38,591 nucleotides of DNA, taken from a virus (lineage: Duplodnaviria > Heunggongvirae > Uroviricota > Caudoviricetes). The notes beneath the pieces were generated by a model. That model had not been told where the DNA came from and did no database searches. It saw nothing but the letters and a program-made list of their open reading frames with translations. Location of the stretch: the IMG/VR virus record IMGVR_UViG_2541047697_000006, one strand, 5' to 3'. The position numbers and the translations under genes were made by a program. The number at the start of each line of letters is the position of its first letter. Position 1 is the first letter of the stretch. Of this stretch, positions 1 to 34,518 are shown piece after piece.

Positions 1-1743
1 ATGAAATACTCTAACAGCAATCTTATTATAAAAATAATACATCTACTTTCACAAAAAAGAGATGGTCTGATTTTGCTTGATGGGAACTGGGGTACAGGAA
101 AGACTCACTTTATCAGAAAAAAATTTCCCAAGTACTATGATAAAAACATTTTCTATTATATTTCCTTACTAGGTGTTAAATCCTTATCAGATTTCAAAGC
201 TAAAATTATAGATTGTTACTACCTGCAAGATATACAAACATTTAAATCCGGGCTCGAAAGTCTATCAGGGATAGGTAGCATTGCCAGCGGCTCACCTGCA
301 AGTGCCAATATTATTAACAGCATGTTTAATTCTATTGGTGCAAGTGTTAGAGAAAACATTTTATCAAAACTGGATGGTATTTTTATATTGGATGATATAG
401 AGAGAATATCCGAAACATCATTAGTTAGTGAAATTTTGACATATTGCCATTCTCTTTATATGTCCGAGATGAACTCAAATTTAGACTTTATTATTATTAC
501 CAATACATCAACTGAGTCTGGTTTAAAAATAGAACACAAGGAAAAACTCATTGCAGAAACACTTCATTATAATCCGCATCCAGAGGAAATATTGGATATA
601 GATATAATAAATGGAAAGCTTTCCCAATTCCCACAGGAAGATAAAATTCTCTTTGAGGATATAGTAAAAAATAACAACATAGTTAACATCCGTATTTTGA
701 TGCGTATTTTGGACACAGCTACGCCATTATATGAATACGTTAAATCATATCCTCATCTTTCTTGGAGAATACCATCAACAATTCTTTTAAACTCAATATG
801 CTCTTTCTTCATTTTATTATTTTTGCATAATCACTCTCTTGAGGAGCTTCTCAAGGACCAAGATCCAACATTTTTATTAAACACCGAGGAATCAAGTGAT
901 AGTGAGAGAGTGCTATGGTTAGCATTGAATAATTACAAAATAAAACCTGAGATTAAAAGGTATTATAGCGGACAAGCTTCATTAAATGACATATTGGATG
1001 TTTTGTTTTATGAAGCAAAACCGCTTACTATGAGAGAAATTGCAATATCAGTACGTCCAGAATTACATGAGATAAATGAAAAGGAACTTTCAAATACACT
1101 TGTCGACTTAATTTGCCGTAAGATTGATTGTAATTTCTATGAATGGATAAAAGCGTTTCAGAATTATGAGTATTTAACCACACATAAATACCTACCAAAA
1201 TCACCAATTATAACTCTAAAGTTTGTCACTTCGATTCTGAACGGATTCACTGACAATGAAGTTGCAGAATGCTTTGAGCTATACTCACTTGATAGAAAAA
1301 ATAGCTTAAATAGTGGTTTTGAAGATAGCAAATTGCTGTACTCAATTTCATTTTACCGTTATAAAAGCACAATCAAAATGCGTGAGCTCAACACTATTAG
1401 GTTGCAATTAGAATTGAATGGCTGGGCATCATTCAATGCTAACCAATTAACCACTTTAGATCCATTCGGAAATTATAAGCCGCTTGAAGTGCTTGGTGTA
1501 TCATTTGTAACAAAATGCGTTTTAAAGAATTGGGCAGTTAATGATATTGAGCAATTTAGTTCTTTCTTGCGTAGCAACTATCAAATCAGCAACATAAAAC
1601 AATTCGCCACTAATGAAAAAAACAAACTTATTTATCTTAGTCAAAAACTTGATATTTTTTGCCTTTCCTATAAAGAAAGCTTTAAATTTGGAGCCATATA
1701 CGATCTAAACAGAACAGTTAAAATTGCCATTAACAAATTATGA
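1..1743 (+). CDS. KAP-family P-loop NTPase (candidate abortive-infection/defence protein)
   Basis: Walker A GNWGTGKT at residues 28-35 and Walker B-like FILDDIER about 100 aa later, the N-terminal layout typical of KAP NTPases (PifA group). Very AT-rich compared with flanking phage genes. ORF starts exactly at window position 1. Confidence 0.6.
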   Translation: MKYSNSNLIIKIIHLLSQKRDGLILLDGNWGTGKTHFIRKKFPKYYDKNIFYYISLLGVKSLSDFKAKIIDCYYLQDIQTFKSGLESLSGIGSIASGSPASANIINSMFNSIGASVRENILSKLDGIFILDDIERISETSLVSEILTYCHSLYMSEMNSNLDFIIITNTSTESGLKIEHKEKLIAETLHYNPHPEEILDIDIINGKLSQFPQEDKILFEDIVKNNNIVNIRILMRILDTATPLYEYVKSYPHLSWRIPSTILLNSICSFFILLFLHNHSLEELLKDQDPTFLLNTEESSDSERVLWLALNNYKIKPEIKRYYSGQASLNDILDVLFYEAKPLTMREIAISVRPELHEINEKELSNTLVDLICRKIDCNFYEWIKAFQNYEYLTTHKYLPKSPIITLKFVTSILNGFTDNEVAECFELYSLDRKNSLNSGFEDSKLLYSISFYRYKSTIKMRELNTIRLQLELNGWASFNANQLTTLDPFGNYKPLEVLGVSFVTKCVLKNWAVNDIEQFSSFLRSNYQISNIKQFATNEKNKLIYLSQKLDIFCLSYKESFKFGAIYDLNRTVKIAINKL

Positions 1744-2223
1744 GAACATCCACTTTACCAAAAAATCATTTTTTGGTGGGGTAATACCTGGCGATTAACA
1801 AATCTGAAAACAAAGCTCTAATACAGCGGCGAAAGCACGATTTACTTGTGTATATTTAGTTCAAGACGTGCTTCGCCGTGCATCTCTCACCATTTCCCTC
1901 CAGAGCAACATTAAAATACTTCATATAATATAGATATAAGTATCATCTAGCCAAAAACCATTTGAATCCACATGCATTCCAGCTTTTATTGATACTCTAT
2001 CTGATATATCATCCCACCAATTCAGCCATTAATGCTATGACAGGAATTCTAGTTATTCATCATTTTGAGCTGATGATGTAATAACGCAACTCATTAATAT
2101 CTAATGTTTTTTCACTCACCCCTATTACTTCTGTGGCGCTTGCAAAAAATCATTCAATCTGAAGCAGGTAATTAATCTCGCCACTTACTATCAGTTTCGG
2201 GAAAGTACACTAAACATGCTTTT

Positions 2224-2517
2224 TCACCCAAGATTAACTAACCGCCAGACCAGCAGACACGCCACCACCGGCGCAGCAAAATCCATCAGGCTTGCCACAT
2301 CCCACGCGCGCGGATCAAAACCGCCCCACCACGGCATATTCATACGCTTGCCATGCCCGAACATTTCAATCCAGCGATATTCTGCCTGGGTGTGTTCCCG
2401 CGCAATGAAGAACGTACAACCGGCTATCGCACCGTAAGCCCAGTTTCCGGTAAAAAGACCACCCAGTACCTGTGCGACCACAGCGCAAAGTGCGTGATGA
2501 ATTGGGGTTTTATCCAT
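2224..2517 (-). CDS. Small two-TM membrane protein, translationally coupled to tailspike
   Basis: ATG immediately follows the tailspike TAG stop. Two hydrophobic stretches (ALCAVVAQVLGGLF..., FAAPVVACLLVWRLV). Overlapping + strand ORFs treated as antisense artefacts. Confidence 0.5.
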   Translation of the reverse strand: MDKTPIHHALCAVVAQVLGGLFTGNWAYGAIAGCTFFIAREHTQAEYRWIEMFGHGKRMNMPWWGGFDPRAWDVASLMDFAAPVVACLLVWRLVNLG

Positions 2518-5103
2518 CTACTCTATCTCTTTTGCTTTTTTAATTATCAATTCAAGCTCTGTTAAACGAGATTCAATACGTTCACACCTTCTTCGCTGGA
2601 ATGCAGCCTCCAACCACAAACATTCATCTGGACGCAATCCCCAACGCTCACCAGCATGTACAACCAGTTCCGTTTCACCAGTATCGTATTCTTCAAAGTA
2701 TTCGTGAACGATGTCTTCTCCTTCAGGGGATTTAGCTATAAATGACACCTTGCGCTGTGCCATTACAGGTTGGTACTCATCATCCCATTTATCATGACAT
2801 AGCAAGCCAAATCTTGTTCCATCTATCCCCTTTGCAAGAAACGCATCTCTTACCTGCTGTGCAATTGCTCCGAAATGCCAACGAGCAGTATCCGAACCTT
2901 TAGCCTTAATATCGGACAACCACTGGTAAACGATAATATTTACGTCACCCCATGCGTCAAGAATTGCATCCTGATCCACCTCCATGATTTCTGAAAGTTG
3001 CTCTACTGTCAGTGGCTTTGTTTTCAATGTCTGGTCTGAAGTATTTATTGCCCCATTAGTTGCATATACTTGCGTCCACCGTTTAGATGATGTCCCACAT
3101 GATGACGTATTATCTTTATTAGCACTTATATAGCCATTAACCTCCGCTGACTGACCGATATACGAATATGAAGATGTTGATAAGGGAGATTTAAATATCC
3201 ATTGAGCATTGGTAAAGTCATAAATACCGGTATCACCTTTTTCACTAACATGAAAAGTTACATTCCGTAACGTATTCTTTGCATCATAACGGGCGGCTTG
3301 TGTTGTTGCCCTCGAAACAGTGAATCCTTTGTCATCAAGGTTTGCCTGCTCTATGACTTCACCACCAGGCATAATTTTACCAAGGCTTAACAAACCAGAG
3401 TTAGTGACAATATCATGGGTTGAATCAATGATAATACCAGGCTGATTTCTTGATGTTGTTTTTACATGCATGACCTGTTGTGGCATTAATGTGTAAAATG
3501 TAGTTTCTCGCCCACTATCACCATCTGGTATGCCATTTGTATTCCCCATTACAAGGTCATACCCACCTGCAATCATACGGAAAAACATTGCTTCTGGTTC
3601 ATATGTAAGATTGCTAACATCTGGCGTTCCGGTATCATTTGGATCTGCTATTTCATAGGCTCTTCCTGCACCTGCCTGTATTTGCTGCACCCCAAGATAA
3701 ACACCATCAAGTGTGTACTGATGCAAATATTTTCTGGTTGAAGAATATGCAGATCCAGCCTGACAAAAATAAATAGCAGTACCGTCACACGCAACTGTTT
3801 GCATATCCCTCACAAAATCGGCAATTTCAAATTCAAAAGTTGCTTCATTACGATAATCGTAATTGTACGCCTGCGGGTTAATAAATTTGCTGGTATCAAA
3901 TACTTTTACATAATAGCGAATTTGATCTGGTGTTGATGGGCTCTCACCAGGGCCAACATAACGTTTTGCTGTAGTAATCAGCCATCGACTCATAGGGTCG
4001 GTGCATAAAACATTTACCTGATTCTCGTAACCATCTTCCCATATGAGAAAAAACTCTGGTTCAATTTCACCACCATCAGTAGGGGTGAATCTGGTGATAT
4101 ACTTTGCGCGATCCTCTCCTTTAGCTGTGCCAGCTAACCCCCATATCTGTAACTGGCCTCTTGTGTTACGAAAACCAACGCGCCCTATGGTTAAACCAAG
4201 ACATTGATGTCCTAATTCTCTACTACCTTTAGTCTCCCAAAGAGGAGTTAACTCTTCATTCCCAAACCAATTATAAGCAACAACTTTATTAACTTCGTCA
4301 CCAGAACTAACGCTGCCACTCACATTTACCAAGCAATAAAGAACACTGTCATAATAATCAAGAACAGCACCCTGTATGACAGTATTTTTAATTGTTGCCA
4401 GTCGCAACCCTGACTTAACATGATTAGGAGTAGAAGGTCTGAAACCTGTATACATCCCCTTTTTTATAGTTTGTATTCTTTTTTCAGTAAAATCAGCATC
4501 TGGCAGTAATCGATTCTCTGTGCGAAAATAGCCATTTATATACTTATTTCCATCAAAAACTTGATCTGTTATATATGTATTACCCCTTAGATCAACAATC
4601 CTTCCTGTGATTTGTTTTTCTAACTCTTGAAAAGATAATGTGTCATCGGTGATGCCATCACCTTTTGCTCCCCATCCGCGAGGGTCAGCGTCATCACGCC
4701 ACCGAGACATCTGCAATTCATGATATTTTTTAGCACCTTCCGGGTCTTCTAATTGTTGTCTTAATTGGTCAGGATCGTACTTAAGCACATTCGGAAAATA
4801 GAACTGCTGCGTACCATATGCATCGTAAACAGCCATAGAATGGCCTTGCACGGTAACGAATTTGGAAATCTGTCCGTTGTATACCGGGTATCCAGCAGCA
4901 TTGATAACGATTGGCTGTGGCACCTGAACATAAGTACCATCTTCTCGTTCCAGATATACTGGAATCTGGTTTTCTGGATTTACCGGATCTGTGTCAATCT
5001 TACCGATATAAATTTTTCCATTTGCTACGGTTTTAAAAGAACTAGCCATTGTGAAGAGTTGCGATGGCATACCTATCACAACATTTGGGGTTATATCAGG
5101 CAT
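2518..5103 (-). CDS. Tailspike protein: P22 gp9-type head-binding N-domain, beta-helix-like central domain, C-terminal intramolecular chaperone (peptidase S74-like) domain
   Basis: N-terminus MPDITPNVV...[21 protein letters not shown]...[13 protein letters not shown]...NVLKYDPDQ matches the P22 tailspike head-binding domain as recalled. [11 protein letters not shown] motif. C-terminus has NTSDQTLK followed by about 170 aa typical of auto-cleaving chaperone domains. Start chosen at internal ATG 5103 (AGGA upstream), not ORF-track start 5196. Confidence 0.85.
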
Positions 5104-5454
5104 ATTAGTCATCCTGTTTGAAGATTTAGATATTGAAGAAAACGGAATGACTGCAGACAACGATGCAATTGTTTTGAAAAATAACCTTCTATTCATTTAA
5201 AAACCATGCAACATGAACAAAACGATTATTTTACAATACTCAAGAATCTTGATCAACAGGCATATTATTTATGCGCTTAATGCGTCACTTACAAAAATAA
5301 AAACAAGTAATACCTTTATTCCTATCGTCCATGATTTTTATTTTCAAACATTATTAAATAACAATTCCTATTTATAATATCTGTCATTTAATTTTCTCCA
5401 AATACAAGGAATCGCCGCAGCATTGCCGCAGTGATGTATTATTAATCAAAAAGA

Positions 5455-5534: not shown

Positions 5535-5693
5535 ATGGGAAGAGATGACCCGCAATTTAATCTGCGGATATCTTACGAATTAAAGGAAAAACTAAAACAG
5601 CGAGCCAAATCCAATGGCCGCTCTCTTAATTCAGAATTAGTTCAGATAGTGACTGATGCTGTATCAAAGCCATCCAAAATTTCAGGCTATTGA
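5535..5693 (+). CDS. mnt: Mnt-like ribbon-helix-helix repressor, interrupted by in-frame TGA at codon 53 (homology continues in frame to 5786)
   Basis: MGRDDPQFNLRISYELKEKLKQRAKSNGRSLNSELVQIVTDAVSKPSKISGY then TGA then DDAERIADEQSDLVKKMVFDTLKDLYKKPT; matches P22 Mnt (83 aa) as recalled, with Arg at the TGA position. Confidence 0.6.
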   Translation: MGRDDPQFNLRISYELKEKLKQRAKSNGRSLNSELVQIVTDAVSKPSKISGY

Positions 5694-6474: not shown

Positions 6475-6864
6475 GTGAAGCAATTTCTTGCTGCTATGTT
6501 CTTATTCATATCTTTTGGGGCTACAGCAGAGTGCTGGGTCGTTGGAGATATGCGGGGAATAAGCTATTCAGAACGAAATAATTTCCATCCGGAAGAAGAT
6601 GGTTTTAGTGGAACATTCATCATTAAGACAAGCGGTGAAGATGCCAGCATCACATATTCTGGGACAGATGCGGGCGGCATGGCTTACAAAGCATTGTCTA
6701 AAAACTCCATCATAGGAATCGGCGCGAATGGCGAAACTCAACGCGTTATCGACTCATGGGTAATACATCCTACTGGAACAGTTTTAATGTCAAAAACCAT
6801 TTCCGGTTATGGAAATATGGATTCAACCAAAGCTTTTGTTGGAAAAGTAAAAAGAAAATGTTAG
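6475..6864 (+). CDS. Secreted/periplasmic protein, paralog of the cI-coupled gene at 30863..31267
   Basis: GTG start 5 nt after a strong AAGGAGG. Signal peptide MKQFLAAMFLFISFGATA, mature N-terminus ECWVV, C-terminal STKAFVGKV...C. Shares ECW / YSG / YKALS / SW.I / STK.FVG motifs with the 30863 protein. Confidence 0.55.
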   Translation: MKQFLAAMFLFISFGATAECWVVGDMRGISYSERNNFHPEEDGFSGTFIIKTSGEDASITYSGTDAGGMAYKALSKNSIIGIGANGETQRVIDSWVIHPTGTVLMSKTISGYGNMDSTKAFVGKVKRKC

Positions 6865-6888
6865 CGATTGAATCCAATTTCCCATACG

Positions 6889-8730
6889 TTACTGCTGTGT
6901 TGCCTCAGTAGCAAACAGCGGTCTGATGGCATTCGCAGCGTTATTTAGCGCTCTTTCATAGGCTGGTGTTCCTGCTTTGGTGTTTGCCAAACGAAGAAGC
7001 ATATTCCTTGCGGCTTTGGACTCATACAAACGCATCATTGCACCAAAGCCAGCCTCAAGCCCCATTGATACTCCAAGAGTCGCAGTTGCGCCAATCGTCC
7101 TTATCCTGTTGGCTTGTGATTGCCCCGTCTGAGTTACTACATTTGCGGTGTCTGACCTTGCTGTTTGCTGTAGAACTTCATGAAGAGCATCAAGCTCTTT
7201 CATGTGCTTTCCAGAAAAAATAGTGTTGTAAATTTCACCGCCTGACTGAGATTTAAGCTTATTAACTTCAGTGATGAACTTGGCTGGAGAGTCACCGGCC
7301 TTTTCCGCTATTTTGCTGACGTAAGCTGCACGCATAGCATCTTTCCCTTTATCATCCAATGCGCTCCAGATTCGTTTCACGTCAGATGGCTTTCTGCTTA
7401 ATACAACGGTATTTATAAGTTCAGGACTGGCTTCACTGCTTGCCTTGTTGAGCTTGTTAGCAATGTTTTTATTAAGCACCTTATTATAAACGTTTGCATA
7501 ATCGGAGTTTGCTTTAAGGTATTTTGCTGCGTCTGATGCACCGAGGTTTTTTGCAACTGCGTTACGAAGATCTTTTGACATTGCATTCTCTACCATATTG
7601 GTAGCTGCTTTTGCCTGGTTGGGGAAGACCATAGCATCTCCCTGAACATTGGATCTAAATGCTGTTCTGTGCTGACGCAAGAGATCAAACGTAACATCCA
7701 AATCAGTTGCAGGGTTTGCTAATTCTTCACGTAGGTTACGCAAGGATGTAAGCAGGCTTTGATTGGCAGACGTCCCAAGCCGTTCCTGTCTTGCGATCGC
7801 TGTATTCAGAGCATTCATGGTATTTGTGGTATCAACTGCGGCATTACCCATTTTATTGGTGACGTCATTGATAACAGCGCCAGCGGCATCCTTCCGTCCC
7901 CTTAACGTGGTGGTCAGAGATTTCACCACATCATCAGGGTTGTACTCACCAAAACGGTCAAAATAATTGCTTACCAGCTTACTACGCGTTGCATATTGCT
8001 CCGCTCGCTTTGAGCCTGTCCCGAGCAAAGCCCCCTCAGCATCCTGAGTAAGTCCGCGAGTGAAAGCATTTTTCGGCGGGATAACATCAGATGTCATTGG
8101 TGTCACGCCCATCGATTCTGATGTGGCAATTTTCTTCGCCACTTCTGGCGCAATATCACCTTTTATAGCCGTTATTCCACGCCCTATTCCCTTTGCTGCT
8201 GCGGAAAGAACACCCTGAGCGGCAAGGTTAACTCCGGCATTTTTAGCTGCATTTTGTGCGAAATCACCTTTCTGATTTGCGGCCTCTGCCAGTGATCCAA
8301 TAGCCATGCTTCCTGCCGTTCCAACTCCTGGAACTAAATACCCGCCAATTGTTTCTCCAGCTTGAGCGTAGGGGTCTGTCGGTCTGTCTACTGGACGATA
8401 GACATCATCCAATACTTTTGGCCCACCAAGCCCCTGACTGATTGCATTAATCAGACTTGCGCCACCCTGCAATACGTCAAATGGTATGTTTACCAGACCA
8501 CGACCAGCCTGTTCTGCAATTTGCCCTGCACTTTGACCACCAGTGAGCCAATCGCCAGCTTGTTGCATCAATGATGGTTCTTCCCGTGTTGGTGCATTAT
8601 TGTCCTGATTAACTGTTTTTTGCTGAACAGCCTGACCAGCAAAATACTCATCAATGGCGGTGCCAATATCTTCCGTGCTCGTACCATCAGGGAAGGTAAA
8701 TGTCTTACCGTTTGCAGTTACTTTCATCAT
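6889..8730 (-). CDS. Ejection (internal virion) protein, P22 gp16-like
   Basis: 613 aa; position and length match P22 gene 16; Ala/Gly-rich. Confidence 0.75.
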
Positions 8731-21980: not shown

Positions 21981-22418
21981 TTATTTCAGGCATTGCGTCC
22001 TGATGTATTCTTGCAGGTAGTTAACCTGCGCGGTTATCTTGTCGATTCCACTTCGGAGACGGTAATAATTGAGTTCAGCATCTGCTGTAAGTCTTGGGCT
22101 TTCTCCATCGCCCATGCCGCTGGCTCCGGTCTTTGACTTTGCACAGGAGGCGGCGACTTGCAGCCGCTTACGCCCAGCAGAAACATCATCACGGAGACTT
22201 TCGATAGTCGCGTTAGCATCAGCAAGCTCCTTTGTATATCTGGCATCGAGTTCTGCTACATCACGTTGACGCTTCTGCATATCAGCGATGATGGATGTGG
22301 CTTTATCGCGCTGGTCTTTGTAGGCGATGGCGTTATCACGGTAATGATTAACAGCCCATGACAGGCAGACGATGATGCAGATAACCAGAGCGGAGATAAT
22401 CGCGGTGACTCTGCTCAT
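21981..22418 (-). CDS. Rz: Spanin inner-membrane subunit (Rz-type i-spanin)
   Basis: N-terminal TM ([16 protein letters not shown]) then coiled-coil-like region; directly downstream of R with ATGA overlap. Confidence 0.8.
22034..22189 (-). CDS. Rz1: Spanin outer-membrane lipoprotein subunit (Rz1-type), embedded in the +1 frame of Rz
   Basis: Embedded ORF with lipoprotein signal and lipobox ([10 protein letters not shown]), Pro-rich mature region. Confidence 0.65.
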
Positions 22419-22891
22419 ACCTCAATCTCTCTGACCGTTCCGCCCGCTTCTTTGAATTTTGCAATCAGGCTGTCAGCCTTATGCTCGAACTGACCATAAC
22501 CAGCGCCCGGCAGTGAAGCCCAGATATTGCTGCAACGGTCGATTGCCTGACGGATATCACCGCGATCAATCATCGGTAAAGCGCCACGCTCCTTAATCTG
22601 CTGCAATGCCACAGCGTCCTGGCTTTTCGGAGAGAAGTCTTTCAGGCCAAGCTGCTTACGGTAGGCATCCCACCAACGGGAAAGAAGCTGGTAACGTCCG
22701 GCGGCTGTTGATTTGAGTTTGGGGTTTAGCGTGACAAGTTTGCGAGGGTGATCGGAGTAATCAGTGAATAGCTCTCCGCCAACAATGACGTCATAACCAT
22801 GATTTCTGGTTTTCTGTCGTCCGTTATCAGTTCCCTCTGACCACGCCAGCATATCGAGGAACGCCTTACGTTGATTATTGATTTCCACCAT
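22415..22891 (-). CDS. R: Endolysin (lambda R-type lytic transglycosylase)
   Basis: [53 protein letters not shown]... essentially lambda R as recalled. Confidence 0.95.
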
Positions 22892-23198
22892 CTTCTACTC
22901 CGGCTTTTTTAGCAGCGAAGCGTTTGATAAGCGAACCAATCGAGTCAGTACCGATGTAGCCGATGAACACGCTCGTTATATAAGCGAGATTGCTACTTAG
23001 TCCGGCGAAGTCGAGAAGGTCACGAATGAACCAGGCGATAATGGCGCACATCGTTGCGTCGATTACTGTTTTTGTAAACGCACCGCCATTATATCTGCCG
23101 CGAAGGTACGCCATTGCAAACGCAAGGATTGCCCCGATGCCTTGTTCCTTTGCCGCGAGAATGGCGGCTAACAGGTCATGTTTTTCTGGCATCTTCAT
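22875..23198 (-). CDS. S: Holin/antiholin (lambda S-type)
   Basis: [62 protein letters not shown]... essentially lambda S107 as recalled, with the dual-start MKM motif. Confidence 0.95.
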
Positions 23199-33818: not shown

Positions 33819-34201
33819 TGGCACACTCGATTACTGTAAGACTAAACAAGCCAGCAAGAGAGTTTCAGGCCGGGGAAAATATCGGATTCAATATCCGTGC
33901 TGGCGTTCAGTATTACGATCGCCAGACAAAAAAGAAAGAATGGACAAACTACAGCGCCGTTGTATTTGCCAAGCCGGGAGCGCAAGCGGATTACTACCGT
34001 AGTATTCTTGTTGAAGGTGGCATTGTAGAAATTACCGGAGAAAACATCAGGGTTGATGTTTATCAGGGGCAAAATGGTCAATCAATCACTCTTGAATTAC
34101 TGAATGCAAAGATTGGATTTGCAACATCAGGAAACTGCCAACAGCAACAAAGTAGCAATCATCAAAATCATCCTGAATACGATGATTCAATTCCCTTCTA
34201 A
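33818..34201 (+). CDS. ssb: Short phage single-stranded DNA-binding protein
   Basis: 127 aa; ATG overlaps the erf stop; C-terminal acidic tail DDSIPF (compare E. coli SSB DDDIPF). Confidence 0.65.
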   Translation: MAHSITVRLNKPAREFQAGENIGFNIRAGVQYYDRQTKKKEWTNYSAVVFAKPGAQADYYRSILVEGGIVEITGENIRVDVYQGQNGQSITLELLNAKIGFATSGNCQQQQSSNHQNHPEYDDSIPF

Positions 34202-34224
34202 ATTAGCAATATAAGGATTCCATT

Positions 34225-34518
34225 ATGCCAGCGCCTATGTATGGTGCGGATGACCCGCGCCGCTGTTCCGGCAAATCAGTATCGGAGGTGCTGGATAAAT
34301 TCAGAAAAAACTACGACCTGATAATGTCGCTACCGCAGGAAACGAAAGAGGAAAAGGAATTTCGTCATTGTATATGGCTTGCAGAGAAAGAAGAACGCGA
34401 GCGAATTTACCAGACATCAATCCGACCATTCCGTAAAGCCACATATACCCACTTCCCTGAAATTGACCCACGCCTGCGTAATTACCGCTCACGCTATGGC
34501 GCTATCAGTAATGACTGA
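34225..34518 (+). CDS. Possible anti-RecBCD protein (P22 Abc2-like)
   Basis: 97 aa as in P22 Abc2, and positioned next to erf as in P22; assignment from memory only. Confidence 0.35.

What the first reader, a model, noticed from the sequence alone, without database searches (positions are those of the whole stretch)
2224..2517. Two-TM membrane protein translationally coupled to the tailspike and convergent with the KAP NTPase
Its ATG directly follows the tailspike stop, so it is expressed with late genes, yet its composition (GC-rich) differs from the adjacent AT-rich spacer and KAP gene. Small membrane proteins at this position in P22-like phages are typically conversion or exclusion factors (the gtr and sie loci sit here in P22).
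Basis: inference. Interest (0 to 1): 0.4.

Follow-up and report, generated by a model that had tools for sequence, protein, structure and literature searches.

The report
Conserved small phage membrane protein
A small, unusually well conserved membrane-protein gene of unknown function sits directly behind the tailspike gene of this E. coli prophage; its family occurs in over a third of E. coli genomes and is probably an accessory factor acting on the host cell membrane, not a part of the virus particle.

Summary
The ORF at 2224-2517 (-) is a real gene. It encodes 97 aa, matches PHROG 1443 (unknown function, E 1e-55) and has dN/dS about 0.2. Its GC is 55% against 32-40% around it. Its ATG abuts the tailspike TAG in the same frame, its SD is weak, and it is convergent with a KAP NTPase.

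AlphaFold (pLDDT 95) gives three helices, not two. A near-invariant polar set (H8, R40-E41, Q44-A45-E46-Y47-R48, R58, W72, D79, P83) lies on the face predicted to be cytoplasmic. I found no Pfam, NCBIfam, PADLOC, PDB-sequence or fold relative.

The family is in 2068 of 5426 complete E. coli genomes, everywhere annotated 'hypothetical'. In E. coli it is the last gene behind tailspike or side-fibre genes of temperate phages. It is also chromosomal in some Alphaproteobacteria. It is a decayed pseudogene in a virulent phage and absent from many records carrying the same fibre type, so it is not an assembly factor.

Published RNA-seq of strain LF82 shows the Gally homologue silent in LB. In macrophages it rises about 20-fold together with the tailspike while late genes stay off.

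Function is untested. My best guess is an accessory inner-membrane factor of the exclusion/conversion class that acts on a conserved host target. Interest is moderate.

The parts
2224..2517 (-). Gene for the 97-aa membrane protein (PHROG 1443 family), stop codon included
   Evidence: ORF; phrog_1443 E 1.3e-55 over residues 1-95; annotated CDS WP_021516143.1 in E. coli A3; dN/dS 0.17-0.27
2515..2520 (-). Junction TAG|ATG: tailspike stop directly followed, in the same frame, by the start codon. This is also the mosaic breakpoint in E. coli genomes
   Evidence: Sequence; weak SD, -2.9 kcal/mol; E. coli matches to window 1700-2900 end at query position 818, which is window 2517
2449..2508 (-). Helix 1 (residues 4-23), Gly/Ala-rich, with conserved H8 at its start
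   Evidence: AlphaFold2 model, pLDDT 95; H8 present in 93% of 119 diverse members
2359..2442 (-). Helix 2 (residues 26-53): a membrane part (26-39) followed by a polar extension
   Evidence: hydropathy
2368..2400 (-). Core motif R40-E41-H-T-Q44-A45-E46-Y47-R48-W-I50
   Evidence: Invariant or >=90% conserved in alignments A1 and A4 and in 119 representatives
2299..2358 (-). Loop residues 54-73 (G-x-G-K-R58-x-N-M-P-W-W-G-G-F-D-P-R-x-W72), Trp/Gly/Pro/Arg-rich, predicted cytoplasmic
   Evidence: K+R count 5.3 in residues 40-73 against 0.12 in the hairpin turn and 0.71 in the C-tail
2230..2298 (-). Helix 3 (residues 74-96), the most hydrophobic segment, with conserved D79 and P83
2518..5103 (-). 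Tailspike gene (P22-type head-binding domain, C-terminal Peptidase_S74 intramolecular chaperone domain). The ORF extends to 5196, but the RefSeq start corresponds to 5103
   Evidence: Pfam Head_binding 4.5e-61, Peptidase_S74 4.5e-10; PHROG tail spike families; A3 annotation
1744..2223 (.). AT-rich (GC 0.36) spacer between the two convergent genes; no terminator-like hairpin found
1..1743 (+). Convergent KAP-family P-loop NTPase (candidate defence gene). It is a neighbour, not a fixed partner
   Evidence: PF07693 3.5e-7; PADLOC PDC-S49 3.2e-16; convergent downstream of the family gene in only 8 of 80 E. coli-like viral loci
5228..5256 (-). Promoter-like site (TTGATC-17-TAAAAT) upstream of the tailspike, facing the divergent Arc-like gene. 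It is a candidate for late-independent transcription of tailspike plus this gene, but only a consensus match
   Evidence: 1 site found against 3.6 expected in shuffles, so no statistical support; analogy with the Gally RNA-seq

Best explanation
Shown: the ORF is a genuine, purifying-selected gene for a 97-aa protein of the uncharacterised PHROG 1443 family. Predicted with high model confidence: the protein is a three-helix bundle made of a Gly-rich hairpin (4-23, 26-39), a polar continuation of helix 2, a Trp/Gly/Pro/Arg-rich loop, and a third hydrophobic helix (74-96). Shown: a near-invariant set of polar residues (H8; R40, E41, Q44, E46, Y47, R48; R58; W72; D79; P83) is kept from Alpha- to Gammaproteobacteria. 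In the model all of these lie at the membrane face that holds the N-terminus. Inferred from the positive-inside rule: that face is cytoplasmic (N-in, C-out). Shown: in E. coli the gene is the terminal cistron behind the receptor-binding-protein gene, and outside E. coli it follows tail or fibre genes in many loci. In this window it has no spacer, no promoter or terminator of its own and a weak SD. Inferred: it is transcribed with the tailspike and translated by termination-reinitiation. Shown by comparison: it is accessory cargo rather than a virion or assembly component. Its upstream partner keeps changing, it decays in a virulent phage, and it also lives on chromosomes without phage genes. 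Committed guess (inferred, about 40%): it works in the inner membrane of the cell that makes it. There, probably as an oligomer (GxxxG motifs), its conserved pocket binds or acts on a universal inner-membrane component rather than on a phage-specific receptor. The benefit to the phage would be of the exclusion/conversion class. That could mean making the membrane refractory to entry of further phage genomes (about 20%) or altering a lipid-linked envelope intermediate (about 20%).
For: - Real gene and family.
- No other family matches: Pfam, NCBIfam and PADLOC give nothing.
- Structure: pLDDT 95.2, helices 4-23, 26-53 and 74-96.
- Motif conservation.
- Topology: K+R counts are 0.71 + 5.27 on the N-terminus/loop side against 0.12 + 0.71 on the other side.
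- Position behind tail fibre or tailspike genes in unrelated phages: lambdoid 2G7b, KK05-19, Perceval and Tritos; P22-like Gally and the window; myovirus phiHAP-1, behind the fibre assembly gene with a 4-nt overlap; a Comamonas prophage, behind gpJ; jumbo Aeromonas phage ACP1, just upstream of a putative tail fibre gene.
- Upstream neighbours are dominated by PHROG tail and fibre families.
- The gap to the upstream same-strand gene is -4 to 64 nt in roughly half of the diverse loci.
- Not an assembly factor: the gene is frameshifted, internally deleted and stop-containing in HC6, which has no annotated integrase or repressor. The PHROG 1419-type lateral fibre is found in 218 phage records of many size classes (about 50, 107 and 137 kb genomes), while only 68 records match the family at all.
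- Cargo behaviour: the mosaic breakpoint falls exactly at the ATG; upstream gene types vary among 80 E. coli-like loci; GC differs from the neighbours.
- Experimental transcription (PMC9928086, S1 Table; gene identities checked). Gally GALLYPH_17 sits at prophage background in LB (18 normalised counts against a median of 15.6). It rises by about 4.4 log2 units in macrophages together with the tailspike, while terminase, portal and injection genes stay at 2.5-4.
- In Gally the gene has its own unit: an intrinsic terminator after the tailspike, a 190-nt AT-rich gap and an AAGGAG SD.
- Conserved target rather than a specific receptor: the same motif accompanies podo-, sipho- and myovirus tails and occurs in Sphingomonadales-type genomes.
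Against: - No functional test exists for any member, and I found no paper on the family.
- The three LF82 paralogues are at background in LB-grown lysogens. That is unlike classical prophage exclusion genes, which are expressed from the prophage; the P22 systems are an example (PMC10883804).
- Characterised entry blockers are specific to one phage type and diverge fast. SieA exists as three types that are <30% identical and act only on P22-like phages. This family is nearly invariant across phage types.
- Vertical-looking chromosomal copies exist: recN-ligA-gene synteny is kept at about 72% nt identity. These suggest a general cellular role that need not concern phages.
- In Aeromonas phage 62AhydR11PP and in Comamonas prophages the gene lies next to lysis genes.
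- The topology rests on the positive-inside rule only.
- The Tritos copy is not induced although the fibre genes upstream of it are.
Confidence: 0.4

Rival explanations
1. General-purpose small membrane protein, such as a tiny enzyme, a metal or quinone binder, or an ion-conducting oligomer. Its role would be cellular physiology or stress tolerance. Phages would carry it as fitness cargo for the lysogen, with no effect on other phages.
For: The invariant residues are of catalytic or ligand-binding type (His, Glu, Glu, Asp, Arg, Tyr) and are kept across phyla-level host diversity. Chromosomal copies without phage genes follow ligA or pnp in Alphaproteobacteria, and the ligA synteny is kept between genomes about 72% identical. 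Up to 8 copies per E. coli genome are tolerated. The Gally copy is induced in cell-culture medium and in macrophages, like the conditional cargo genes bor and emrE of Perceval.
Against: Outside the Alphaproteobacteria the gene sits behind tail or fibre genes in most loci I examined, which is not expected for a housekeeping-like function. It has no homology or fold match to any enzyme or transporter. It is only 97 aa long.
Confidence: 0.25
2. Lysis-related membrane protein (holin, antiholin or lysis-timing modulator) made late together with the tail fibres.
For: It is about 100 aa with three helices, the size class of class I holins. In Aeromonas phage 62AhydR11PP it lies in one same-strand cluster with an endolysin-like protein and other membrane proteins. 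In Comamonas prophages it directly precedes two membrane proteins and a homologous endolysin-like protein.
Against: The window already has a complete cassette 20 kb away: holin phrog_126, endolysin and Rz-like spanin. It matches no holin family in Pfam or PHROGs. It has no charged C-terminal tail, since the protein ends right after helix 3. Its long, invariant polar loop is unlike the holins I know (my own knowledge). It is transcribed in macrophage-borne lysogens, where the paper reports no phage production.
Confidence: 0.1
3. Maturation or assembly helper for the upstream tailspike or fibre, for instance handling the released S74 chaperone fragment.
For: The stop and start codons abut here. 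In 45 of 80 E. coli-like loci the upstream gene appears to end in an S74-type chaperone domain: 16 are of a type with a Pfam S74 hit, 4 are window-like, and 25 are short fibres judged by C-terminal similarity. The decayed HC6 copy also follows an S74-type tailspike.
Against: It is a pseudogene in HC6, whose S74 tailspike ORF is intact and annotated. It follows quite different proteins elsewhere: a 92-aa soluble protein, a fibre assembly protein, gpJ and a DGR target protein. S74 was found in only one of 66 upstream neighbours outside the E. coli set. The mosaic breakpoint separates it from the tailspike. S74 domains are intramolecular chaperones that need no partner (established knowledge). 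It is a membrane protein with chromosomal homologues.
Confidence: 0.05
4. Membrane component of a two-gene defence system with the convergent KAP NTPase.
For: The two genes are neighbours here. The same pair, with the same spacer, recurs at about 96% identity in many E. coli prophages with different tail genes. The KAP protein matches PADLOC candidate PDC-S49.
Against: They are convergent and 480 bp apart, so they are not an operon. KAP is downstream in only 8 of 80 E. coli-like loci. In other phages the downstream gene is a methyltransferase, integrase, recombinase, sitD or tail sheath gene. The family protein itself has no PADLOC hit.
Confidence: 0.05

Closest known systems
PHROG 1443 (and fragment family PHROG 34165)
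   Same: Full-length match at E 1.3e-55, with the same length of about 97 aa. This is the family the gene belongs to.
   Different: The family has no assigned function and no Pfam, NCBIfam or PADLOC counterpart. Membership therefore names the gene but explains nothing.
P22 SieA (inner-membrane superinfection exclusion protein)
   Same: Both are carried by P22-like prophages. SieA has three predicted TM segments, lies in the inner membrane and acts alone (PMC10883804). This is the working model I borrow for the entry-block variant.
   Different: SieA is 162-164 aa, is expressed from the prophage, and acts only on P22-like phages through ejection proteins gp16 and gp20. It exists as three types that are <30% identical. 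It lies upstream of mnt rather than after the tailspike (my own knowledge). I detected no sequence relation: the Pfam and PHROG scans return only families of unknown function. This family is far more conserved and is not restricted to podoviruses.
P22 gtrABC and Sf6 oac O-antigen conversion genes
   Same: They occupy the same genomic slot, between the tailspike gene and the prophage end (established knowledge), and encode membrane proteins.
   Different: There is no match to GtrA (PF04138) or any acyl- or glycosyltransferase family at E <= 1. Members occur in Sphingomonas and Sphingomicrobium genomes. Sphingomonads are described as having glycosphingolipids instead of LPS (my own knowledge), so an O-antigen-specific role is unlikely.
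Cor (phi80/N15/HK022) and Llp (T5) receptor-blocking lipoproteins
   Same: These are small envelope proteins encoded next to tail-fibre or receptor-binding genes that protect the producing cell (established knowledge, recalled and not tested here).
   Different: They are outer-membrane lipoproteins specific for FhuA. This protein has no lipobox, since C11 is not conserved. It is predicted to sit in the inner membrane, and it does not co-vary with the receptor-binding protein.
HK97 gp15 (YebO-like moron, blocks DNA entry)
   Same: It is a small inner-membrane protein encoded among late structural genes of a temperate phage (paper cited in PMC11364771; details from my own knowledge).
   Different: There is no hit to the YebO family in the Pfam scan. 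gp15 is single-pass and specific to HK97-type injection (my own knowledge).
Class I holins (lambda S, P22 gp13)
   Same: About 100 aa with three membrane helices.
   Different: There is no holin family hit. The window has its own phrog_126 holin. The protein lacks a charged C-terminal tail and has a 34-residue invariant polar loop.

Membership tests
PHROG 1443 | Significant full-length match to the family profile | tested here: met
   E 1.3e-55, 186.6 bits, residues 1-95 against profile positions 1-95 of 97
Moron (autonomous prophage cargo gene) | Own promoter and terminator, separated from the flanking operon | tested here: not met
   In the window there is zero spacer to the tailspike stop. 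No terminator-like site was found in 1600-3200, and promoter-like sites are no more frequent than in shuffles (4 against 4.3). The Gally homologue does have a terminator, an AT-rich gap and a strong SD.
Moron (autonomous prophage cargo gene) | Transcribed in the lysogen independently of the lytic programme | tested here: inconclusive
   This is published RNA-seq on homologues, not on this prophage. Expression is at background in LB, below the authors' 5-fold cut-off. In DMEM and macrophages the Gally and Perceval copies are induced without late-gene expression, while the Tritos copy is not. The Tritos and Perceval copies are 96% identical in DNA, so read assignment between them is uncertain.
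Moron (autonomous prophage cargo gene) | Composition or mosaic boundaries distinct from the neighbours | tested here: met
   GC 0.548 against 0.404 and 0.358; homology breakpoint exactly at the ATG
GtrA-like / O-antigen conversion | Match to GtrA (PF04138) or to a partner glycosyl- or acyltransferase | tested here: not met
   The Pfam scan at E <= 1 returns only PhoR at E 0.34. There is no transferase gene adjacent.
Superinfection exclusion membrane proteins (SieA, SieB, Imm, gp15/YebO) | Sequence membership in one of the described families | tested here: not met
   No Pfam, PHROG (only families of unknown function), NCBIfam or PADLOC hit
Superinfection exclusion membrane proteins (SieA, SieB, Imm, gp15/YebO) | Sufficient on its own to block infection after adsorption | not testable with these tools
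   This needs plating, potassium-efflux and DNA-entry assays.
Holins | Holin family match, charged cytoplasmic C-terminal tail, and adjacency to the endolysin of the same phage | tested here: not met
   There is no holin hit. The C-terminus ends 1-5 residues after helix 3. The window's holin, endolysin and spanin lie at 21981-23198.
Tail fibre assembly chaperones (Tfa-type) | Match to a fibre-assembly family, and required wherever the cognate fibre occurs | tested here: not met
   There is no such hit. In phiHAP-1 it follows a separate fibre assembly gene. The cognate fibre type occurs in 218 phage records against 68 with the gene. It is decayed in HC6.
KAP NTPase-associated defence candidate (PADLOC PDC-S49) | Conserved co-occurrence with the NTPase | tested here: not met
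   KAP is convergent downstream in 8 of 80 loci. The small protein has no PADLOC hit.

The most novel reading that the evidence does not exclude
PHROG 1443 is a new kind of miniature inner-membrane machine. It would be a three-helix oligomer whose invariant H / R-E-x-x-Q-A-E-Y-R / R / W / D pocket on the cytoplasmic face catalyses or gates something at a universal membrane target, such as a polyprenyl-phosphate-linked intermediate, a proton path or a conserved translocon. Temperate phages of many tail types would have captured it from bacterial chromosomes and wired it to their receptor-binding-protein operon, so that the envelope changes whenever fibres are made.
Probability: 0.2. Interest if true: 0.65.

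Novelty: new member of a known kind. Interest (0 to 1): 0.4.

Why it matters
The gene is not exotic in kind. Small membrane cargo genes behind tail-fibre genes are a familiar feature of temperate phages.

This family is nevertheless among the commonest unannotated prophage genes in E. coli. It is in 38% of complete genomes, with a median of two and up to eight copies, and it is present in Nissle 1917, EC958, LF82 and a BL21-type laboratory derivative (T7Express_Crystal). It has a confident structure model and a sharply defined invariant motif. There is already RNA-seq evidence that it is switched on with the tailspike inside macrophages.

That makes it a cheap, well-defined target. One plasmid, a phage panel and six point mutants would show whether it is a broad exclusion factor, an envelope modifier or neither.

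A broad, tail-type-independent entry block would matter for phage therapy host-range prediction in E. coli.

Tried and rejected
- Family libraries. Pfam, NCBIfam and PADLOC gave nothing for the protein. PHROGs gave only families of unknown function.
- PDB by sequence profile. The best hit was E 0.49.
- A second, wider profile search. It gave 928 relatives, and none of those listed carried a Pfam domain. All 150 listed representatives were stand-alone proteins of 63-146 aa, so no informative domain fusion emerged.
- Literature. Searches for phrog_1443, ybl63, protein accessions and locus tags found nothing. One badly chosen query ('moron') was wasted.
- A fixed partner gene. All-against-all BLAST of neighbours in 39 diverse loci found none. 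Downstream genes are heterogeneous.
- A general link to S74 chaperone domains. It holds only within E. coli.
- A link to the KAP NTPase. It is present in 8 of 80 loci.
- Tai/Ati tail-assembly interference systems. The paper never mentions transmembrane proteins, and its example phage phi80 is not among the listed or summarised hits to the family.
- A lipoprotein reading. There is no lipobox and C11 is not conserved.
Full report
**1. The observation**

The minus-strand ORF 2224..2517 encodes 97 aa. On the minus strand the junction reads GAGATAGAG-TAG-ATG. The tailspike stop at 2518-2520 is therefore followed by the ATG with no spacer and in the same reading frame.

The ORF has GC 0.548. The tailspike has 0.404, the spacer at 1744-2223 has 0.358 and the convergent gene at 1-1743 has 0.317. 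Only 1.3% of equally long windows in the 38.6-kb sequence are as GC-rich.

The upstream gene is a P22-type tailspike (Head_binding E 4.5e-61) with a C-terminal Peptidase_S74 chaperone domain. The convergent gene is a KAP-family NTPase.

The window as a whole is a complete P22-like prophage. It has a portal gene, a DNA-transfer protein, its own holin, endolysin and spanin, a CI-like repressor, and an integrase at the far end. It is nearly identical to prophages next to thrS in E. coli strains A3 and A26.

The ORF is a real gene:
- It matches PHROG 1443 over its whole length at E 1.3e-55.
- RefSeq annotates it as a CDS.
- dN/dS against five homologues is 0.17-0.27.

**2. The protein**

AlphaFold2 with a 47-sequence alignment gives a very confident model (mean pLDDT 95.2, pTM 0.81). 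It has three helices, at residues 4-23, 26-53 and 74-96. Hydropathy shows one strongly hydrophobic C-terminal segment and a 35-residue, moderately hydrophobic, Gly/Ala-rich N-terminal stretch. The model splits that stretch into a hairpin at G24-N25.

Across 99-119 representatives that share only 30-55% identity, the following residues stay invariant or nearly so: H8, R40, E41, Q44, A45, E46, Y47, R48, R58, W72, D79 and P83. In closer relatives the whole string AREHTQAEYRWI...GKRxNMPWWGGFDPRxW is fixed.

In an up-down-up bundle all of these residues lie at the face that carries the N-terminus. Lys plus Arg counts are about 6 on that face against 0.8 on the other. By the positive-inside rule the conserved site faces the cytoplasm (N-in, C-out). 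This step is an inference.

GxxxG pairs in helices 1 and 2 suggest helix packing or oligomerisation, which is also an inference.

**3. No known relative**

- Pfam gives only PhoR at E 0.34. NCBIfam and PADLOC give nothing.
- The PDB sequence profile search gives nothing better than E 0.49.
- Three fold searches return only generic helical bundles or PsaL-like three-helix subunits, all below significance.
- None of the 120 relatives listed in each of two searches (560 and 928 found) carries a precomputed Pfam domain.
- An exhaustive profile search of 1.84 billion representatives finds 466 clusters. All 150 listed are stand-alone proteins of 63-146 aa, so no fusion gives a hint.

**4. Distribution**

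The gene is in 2068 of 5426 complete E. coli genomes, with a median of two places and up to eight. It is labelled 'hypothetical protein' in every row shown. IMG/VR holds 434 viral loci.

Species-representative genomes with the strict motif include Aeromonas, Comamonas, Acidovorax, Leclercia, Silvania, Pantoea, Halomonas, Pigmentiphaga, Chelativorans, Sphingomonas, Sphingomicrobium and Desulfovibrio.

In the phage collection 68 records match, 54 of them over at least 80% of the length. The ones I opened are lambdoid or P22-like temperate coliphages, plus Halomonas phiHAP-1 and some Aeromonas phages.

**5. Genomic anatomy elsewhere**

The gene is typically the last gene of the tail-fibre cluster, on the same strand:
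- In lambdoid phages the order is stf-like fibre, a 92-93-aa soluble protein, optionally a short fibre with an S74 domain, then this gene.
- In P22-like phages it follows the tailspike.
- In myovirus phiHAP-1 it overlaps the stop of the fibre-assembly gene by 4 nt and precedes the sheath gene.
- In a Comamonas prophage it follows a 2520-aa gpJ.
- In two Burkholderiales genomes it lies between an upstream ORF of 370-383 aa and a bAvd-like gene, an arrangement that suggests a diversity-generating retroelement.
- In jumbo Aeromonas phage ACP1 it lies just upstream of a putative tail fibre gene.

Upstream neighbours in 39 diverse loci are dominated by PHROG tail and fibre families. The gap to the upstream gene is between -4 and 64 nt in roughly half of them.

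No neighbour family is constant, and downstream genes are heterogeneous. Among 80 E. coli-like viral loci the upstream gene is:
- the 92-aa protein in 35;
- a short fibre in 41 (16 of a type with a Pfam S74 hit, 25 judged S74-like from their C-terminal sequence);
- a window-type tailspike in 4.

The KAP NTPase is convergent downstream in only 8 of these loci.

In E. coli genomes the homology to this window stops exactly at the ATG. The tailspike and the small gene are therefore separate mosaic pieces.

**6. Evidence against a virion or assembly role**

- In phage HC6, which has no annotated integrase or repressor, an S74-type tailspike is followed by an unannotated remnant of the gene. The remnant has a frameshift at codon 2, has lost the central motif and carries an in-frame stop. 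That tailspike belongs to the same PHROG 1171 as the window's and is 68-76% identical in DNA over its C-terminal part. Five further phage records show the same truncated match.
- The lateral fibre type that precedes the gene in lambdoid prophages occurs in 218 phage records, including genomes of about 50, 107 and 137 kb. Only 68 records have any match to the small gene.

**7. Evidence outside phages**

In several alphaproteobacterial genomes the gene lies among housekeeping genes. It follows ligA in two genomes that keep recN-ligA-gene synteny at about 72% DNA identity. It follows pnp in another.

Two bins from one sample share only a 328-bp segment holding the gene (92% identity). In one bin it sits after pnp, in the other after ligA. 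In both it is bracketed by REP-like palindromes.

**8. Expression, from the literature**

E. coli LF82 carries three homologues. They are GALLYPH_17 (78% identical, behind the tailspike of the P22-like prophage Gally), PERCE_24 and TRITO_22.

In the RNA-seq of PMC9928086 all three are at prophage background in LB. The authors state that Gally has no moron.

In cell-culture medium and in macrophages GALLYPH_17 rises from log2 4.1 to 6.0, 7.0, 8.0 and 8.5. The tailspike rises from 3.9 to 7.8, and mnt rises as well. Terminase, portal and injection genes stay at 2.5-4.

PERCE_24 rises about five-fold together with its fibre genes, while J stays silent. TRITO_22 does not rise. These two copies are 96% identical in DNA, so read assignment between them is uncertain.

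In Gally the tailspike is followed by a strong intrinsic terminator, a 190-nt AT-rich gap and an AAGGAG SD before the gene. This fits its consistently higher signal than the tailspike.

The window has none of these elements. There is zero spacing, no terminator-like site, and no excess of promoter-like sites. The anti-SD duplex is only -2.9 kcal/mol, against -2.4 to -9.7 for 17 other genes of the window. Here the gene must ride on the tailspike transcript and probably on its ribosomes.

**9. Interpretation**

The descriptive part is firm. This is an accessory, non-structural inner-membrane protein of an uncharacterised family, wired to the receptor-binding-protein gene. The function is not known.

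The motif is nearly invariant across hosts and tail types, and the family has chromosomal members. The target must therefore be a universal inner-membrane component, not a receptor matched to the tailspike.

P22 SieA shows that a three-TM inner-membrane protein alone can block genome entry (PMC10883804). SieA, however, is specific to one phage type, diverges fast and is expressed from the prophage. This family differs on the first two counts, and its LF82 copies are silent in LB-grown lysogens.

The main rival (25%) is a general membrane-physiology protein carried as fitness cargo. Lysis modulation (10%), fibre maturation (5%) and partnership with the KAP NTPase (5%) are less likely, for the reasons listed under each rival.

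**10. Verdict**

The gene is a new, unstudied member of a familiar class of phage cargo. It is of moderate interest mainly because it is so common, so conserved and so easy to test.

Noticed in passing
window 2515-2520: The small gene is in the same reading frame as the tailspike. Read-through of the TAG, for instance in amber-suppressor hosts, would append the membrane protein to the S74 chaperone fragment of the tailspike. In-frame fusions of the 92-aa upstream protein with this gene (190-194 aa) exist as predicted proteins on metagenome contigs.
   Followed up: partly
window 1-1743: The KAP-family NTPase matches PADLOC defence candidate PDC-S49 (E 3.2e-16). The ORF is intact here. In the near-identical E. 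coli A3 record the region is annotated as two CDS, and the first 9 kb differ from the window by 6 mismatches and 3 indels. The pair KAP plus spacer plus small gene recurs at about 96% identity in lambdoid prophages at other chromosomal sites.
   Followed up: partly
L007 4935-5190 (Escherichia phage HC6, OL362274.1 about 34170-34425): An unannotated, decayed copy of the gene lies between the tailspike-like gene and ssb of a phage with no annotated integrase or repressor. The same truncated match appears in phages 6947, ZCEC08, PBM-2, PBM-3 and HC8A.
   Followed up: yes
LF82 prophages Gally, Perceval, Tritos (PMC9928086 S1 Table): In macrophages the receptor-binding-protein clusters of all three prophages are transcribed 5- to 40-fold above LB levels, while the rest of each late operon stays silent. 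The clusters are the tailspike, the stf-like fibre with its small ORF, and the S74 fibre. I did not pursue why lysogens would make fibres without virions.
   Followed up: no
L126 7886-8276 and L128 7882-8354 (alphaproteobacterial MAGs): The gene is the only segment shared by two different chromosomal contexts, after pnp and after ligA (328 bp, 92% identity). It is flanked by REP-like palindromes TAATGTCCGC...GCGGACATTA that recur elsewhere in both contigs. This suggests movement as a one-gene cassette.
   Followed up: partly
L116 and L117 (Comamonas nitrativorans, Pigmentiphaga humi), about 6785-8690: The gene lies between an upstream ORF of 370-383 aa and a bAvd-like gene, with a 354-aa ORF further on. 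The arrangement looks like a diversity-generating retroelement, but only bAvd was identified by Pfam.
   Followed up: no
L137 2049-4655 (Aeromonas phage 62AhydR11PP) and L008 8001-9521 (Comamonas testosteroni prophage): In both loci the gene is adjacent to membrane proteins and to an endolysin-like protein of the same type (shared motif LQESR...FWQFE). This is the only hint of a link to lysis.
   Followed up: partly
protein collection, 90% cluster of the window protein: The cluster holding this exact 97-aa protein has 2928 members and a 234-aa S74 'tail fiber domain-containing protein' as its representative. That representative shares no sequence with the 97-aa protein. The clusters were presumably chained through fused ORF calls, so cluster-based counts for this protein are unreliable.
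   Followed up: yes
window 5535-5693: An Arc/Mnt-like ORF of only 52 aa is divergent from the tailspike. The corresponding A3 feature is annotated as a pseudogene with an internal stop. The immI-type control of tailspike transcription may therefore be defective in this prophage.
   Followed up: no
window 2518-5196: The tailspike combines a P22 head-binding domain with weak matches to endosialidase N-terminal and catalytic-domain families and an S74 chaperone domain. It may be a capsule- or polysaccharide-degrading enzyme of unknown specificity.
   Followed up: no
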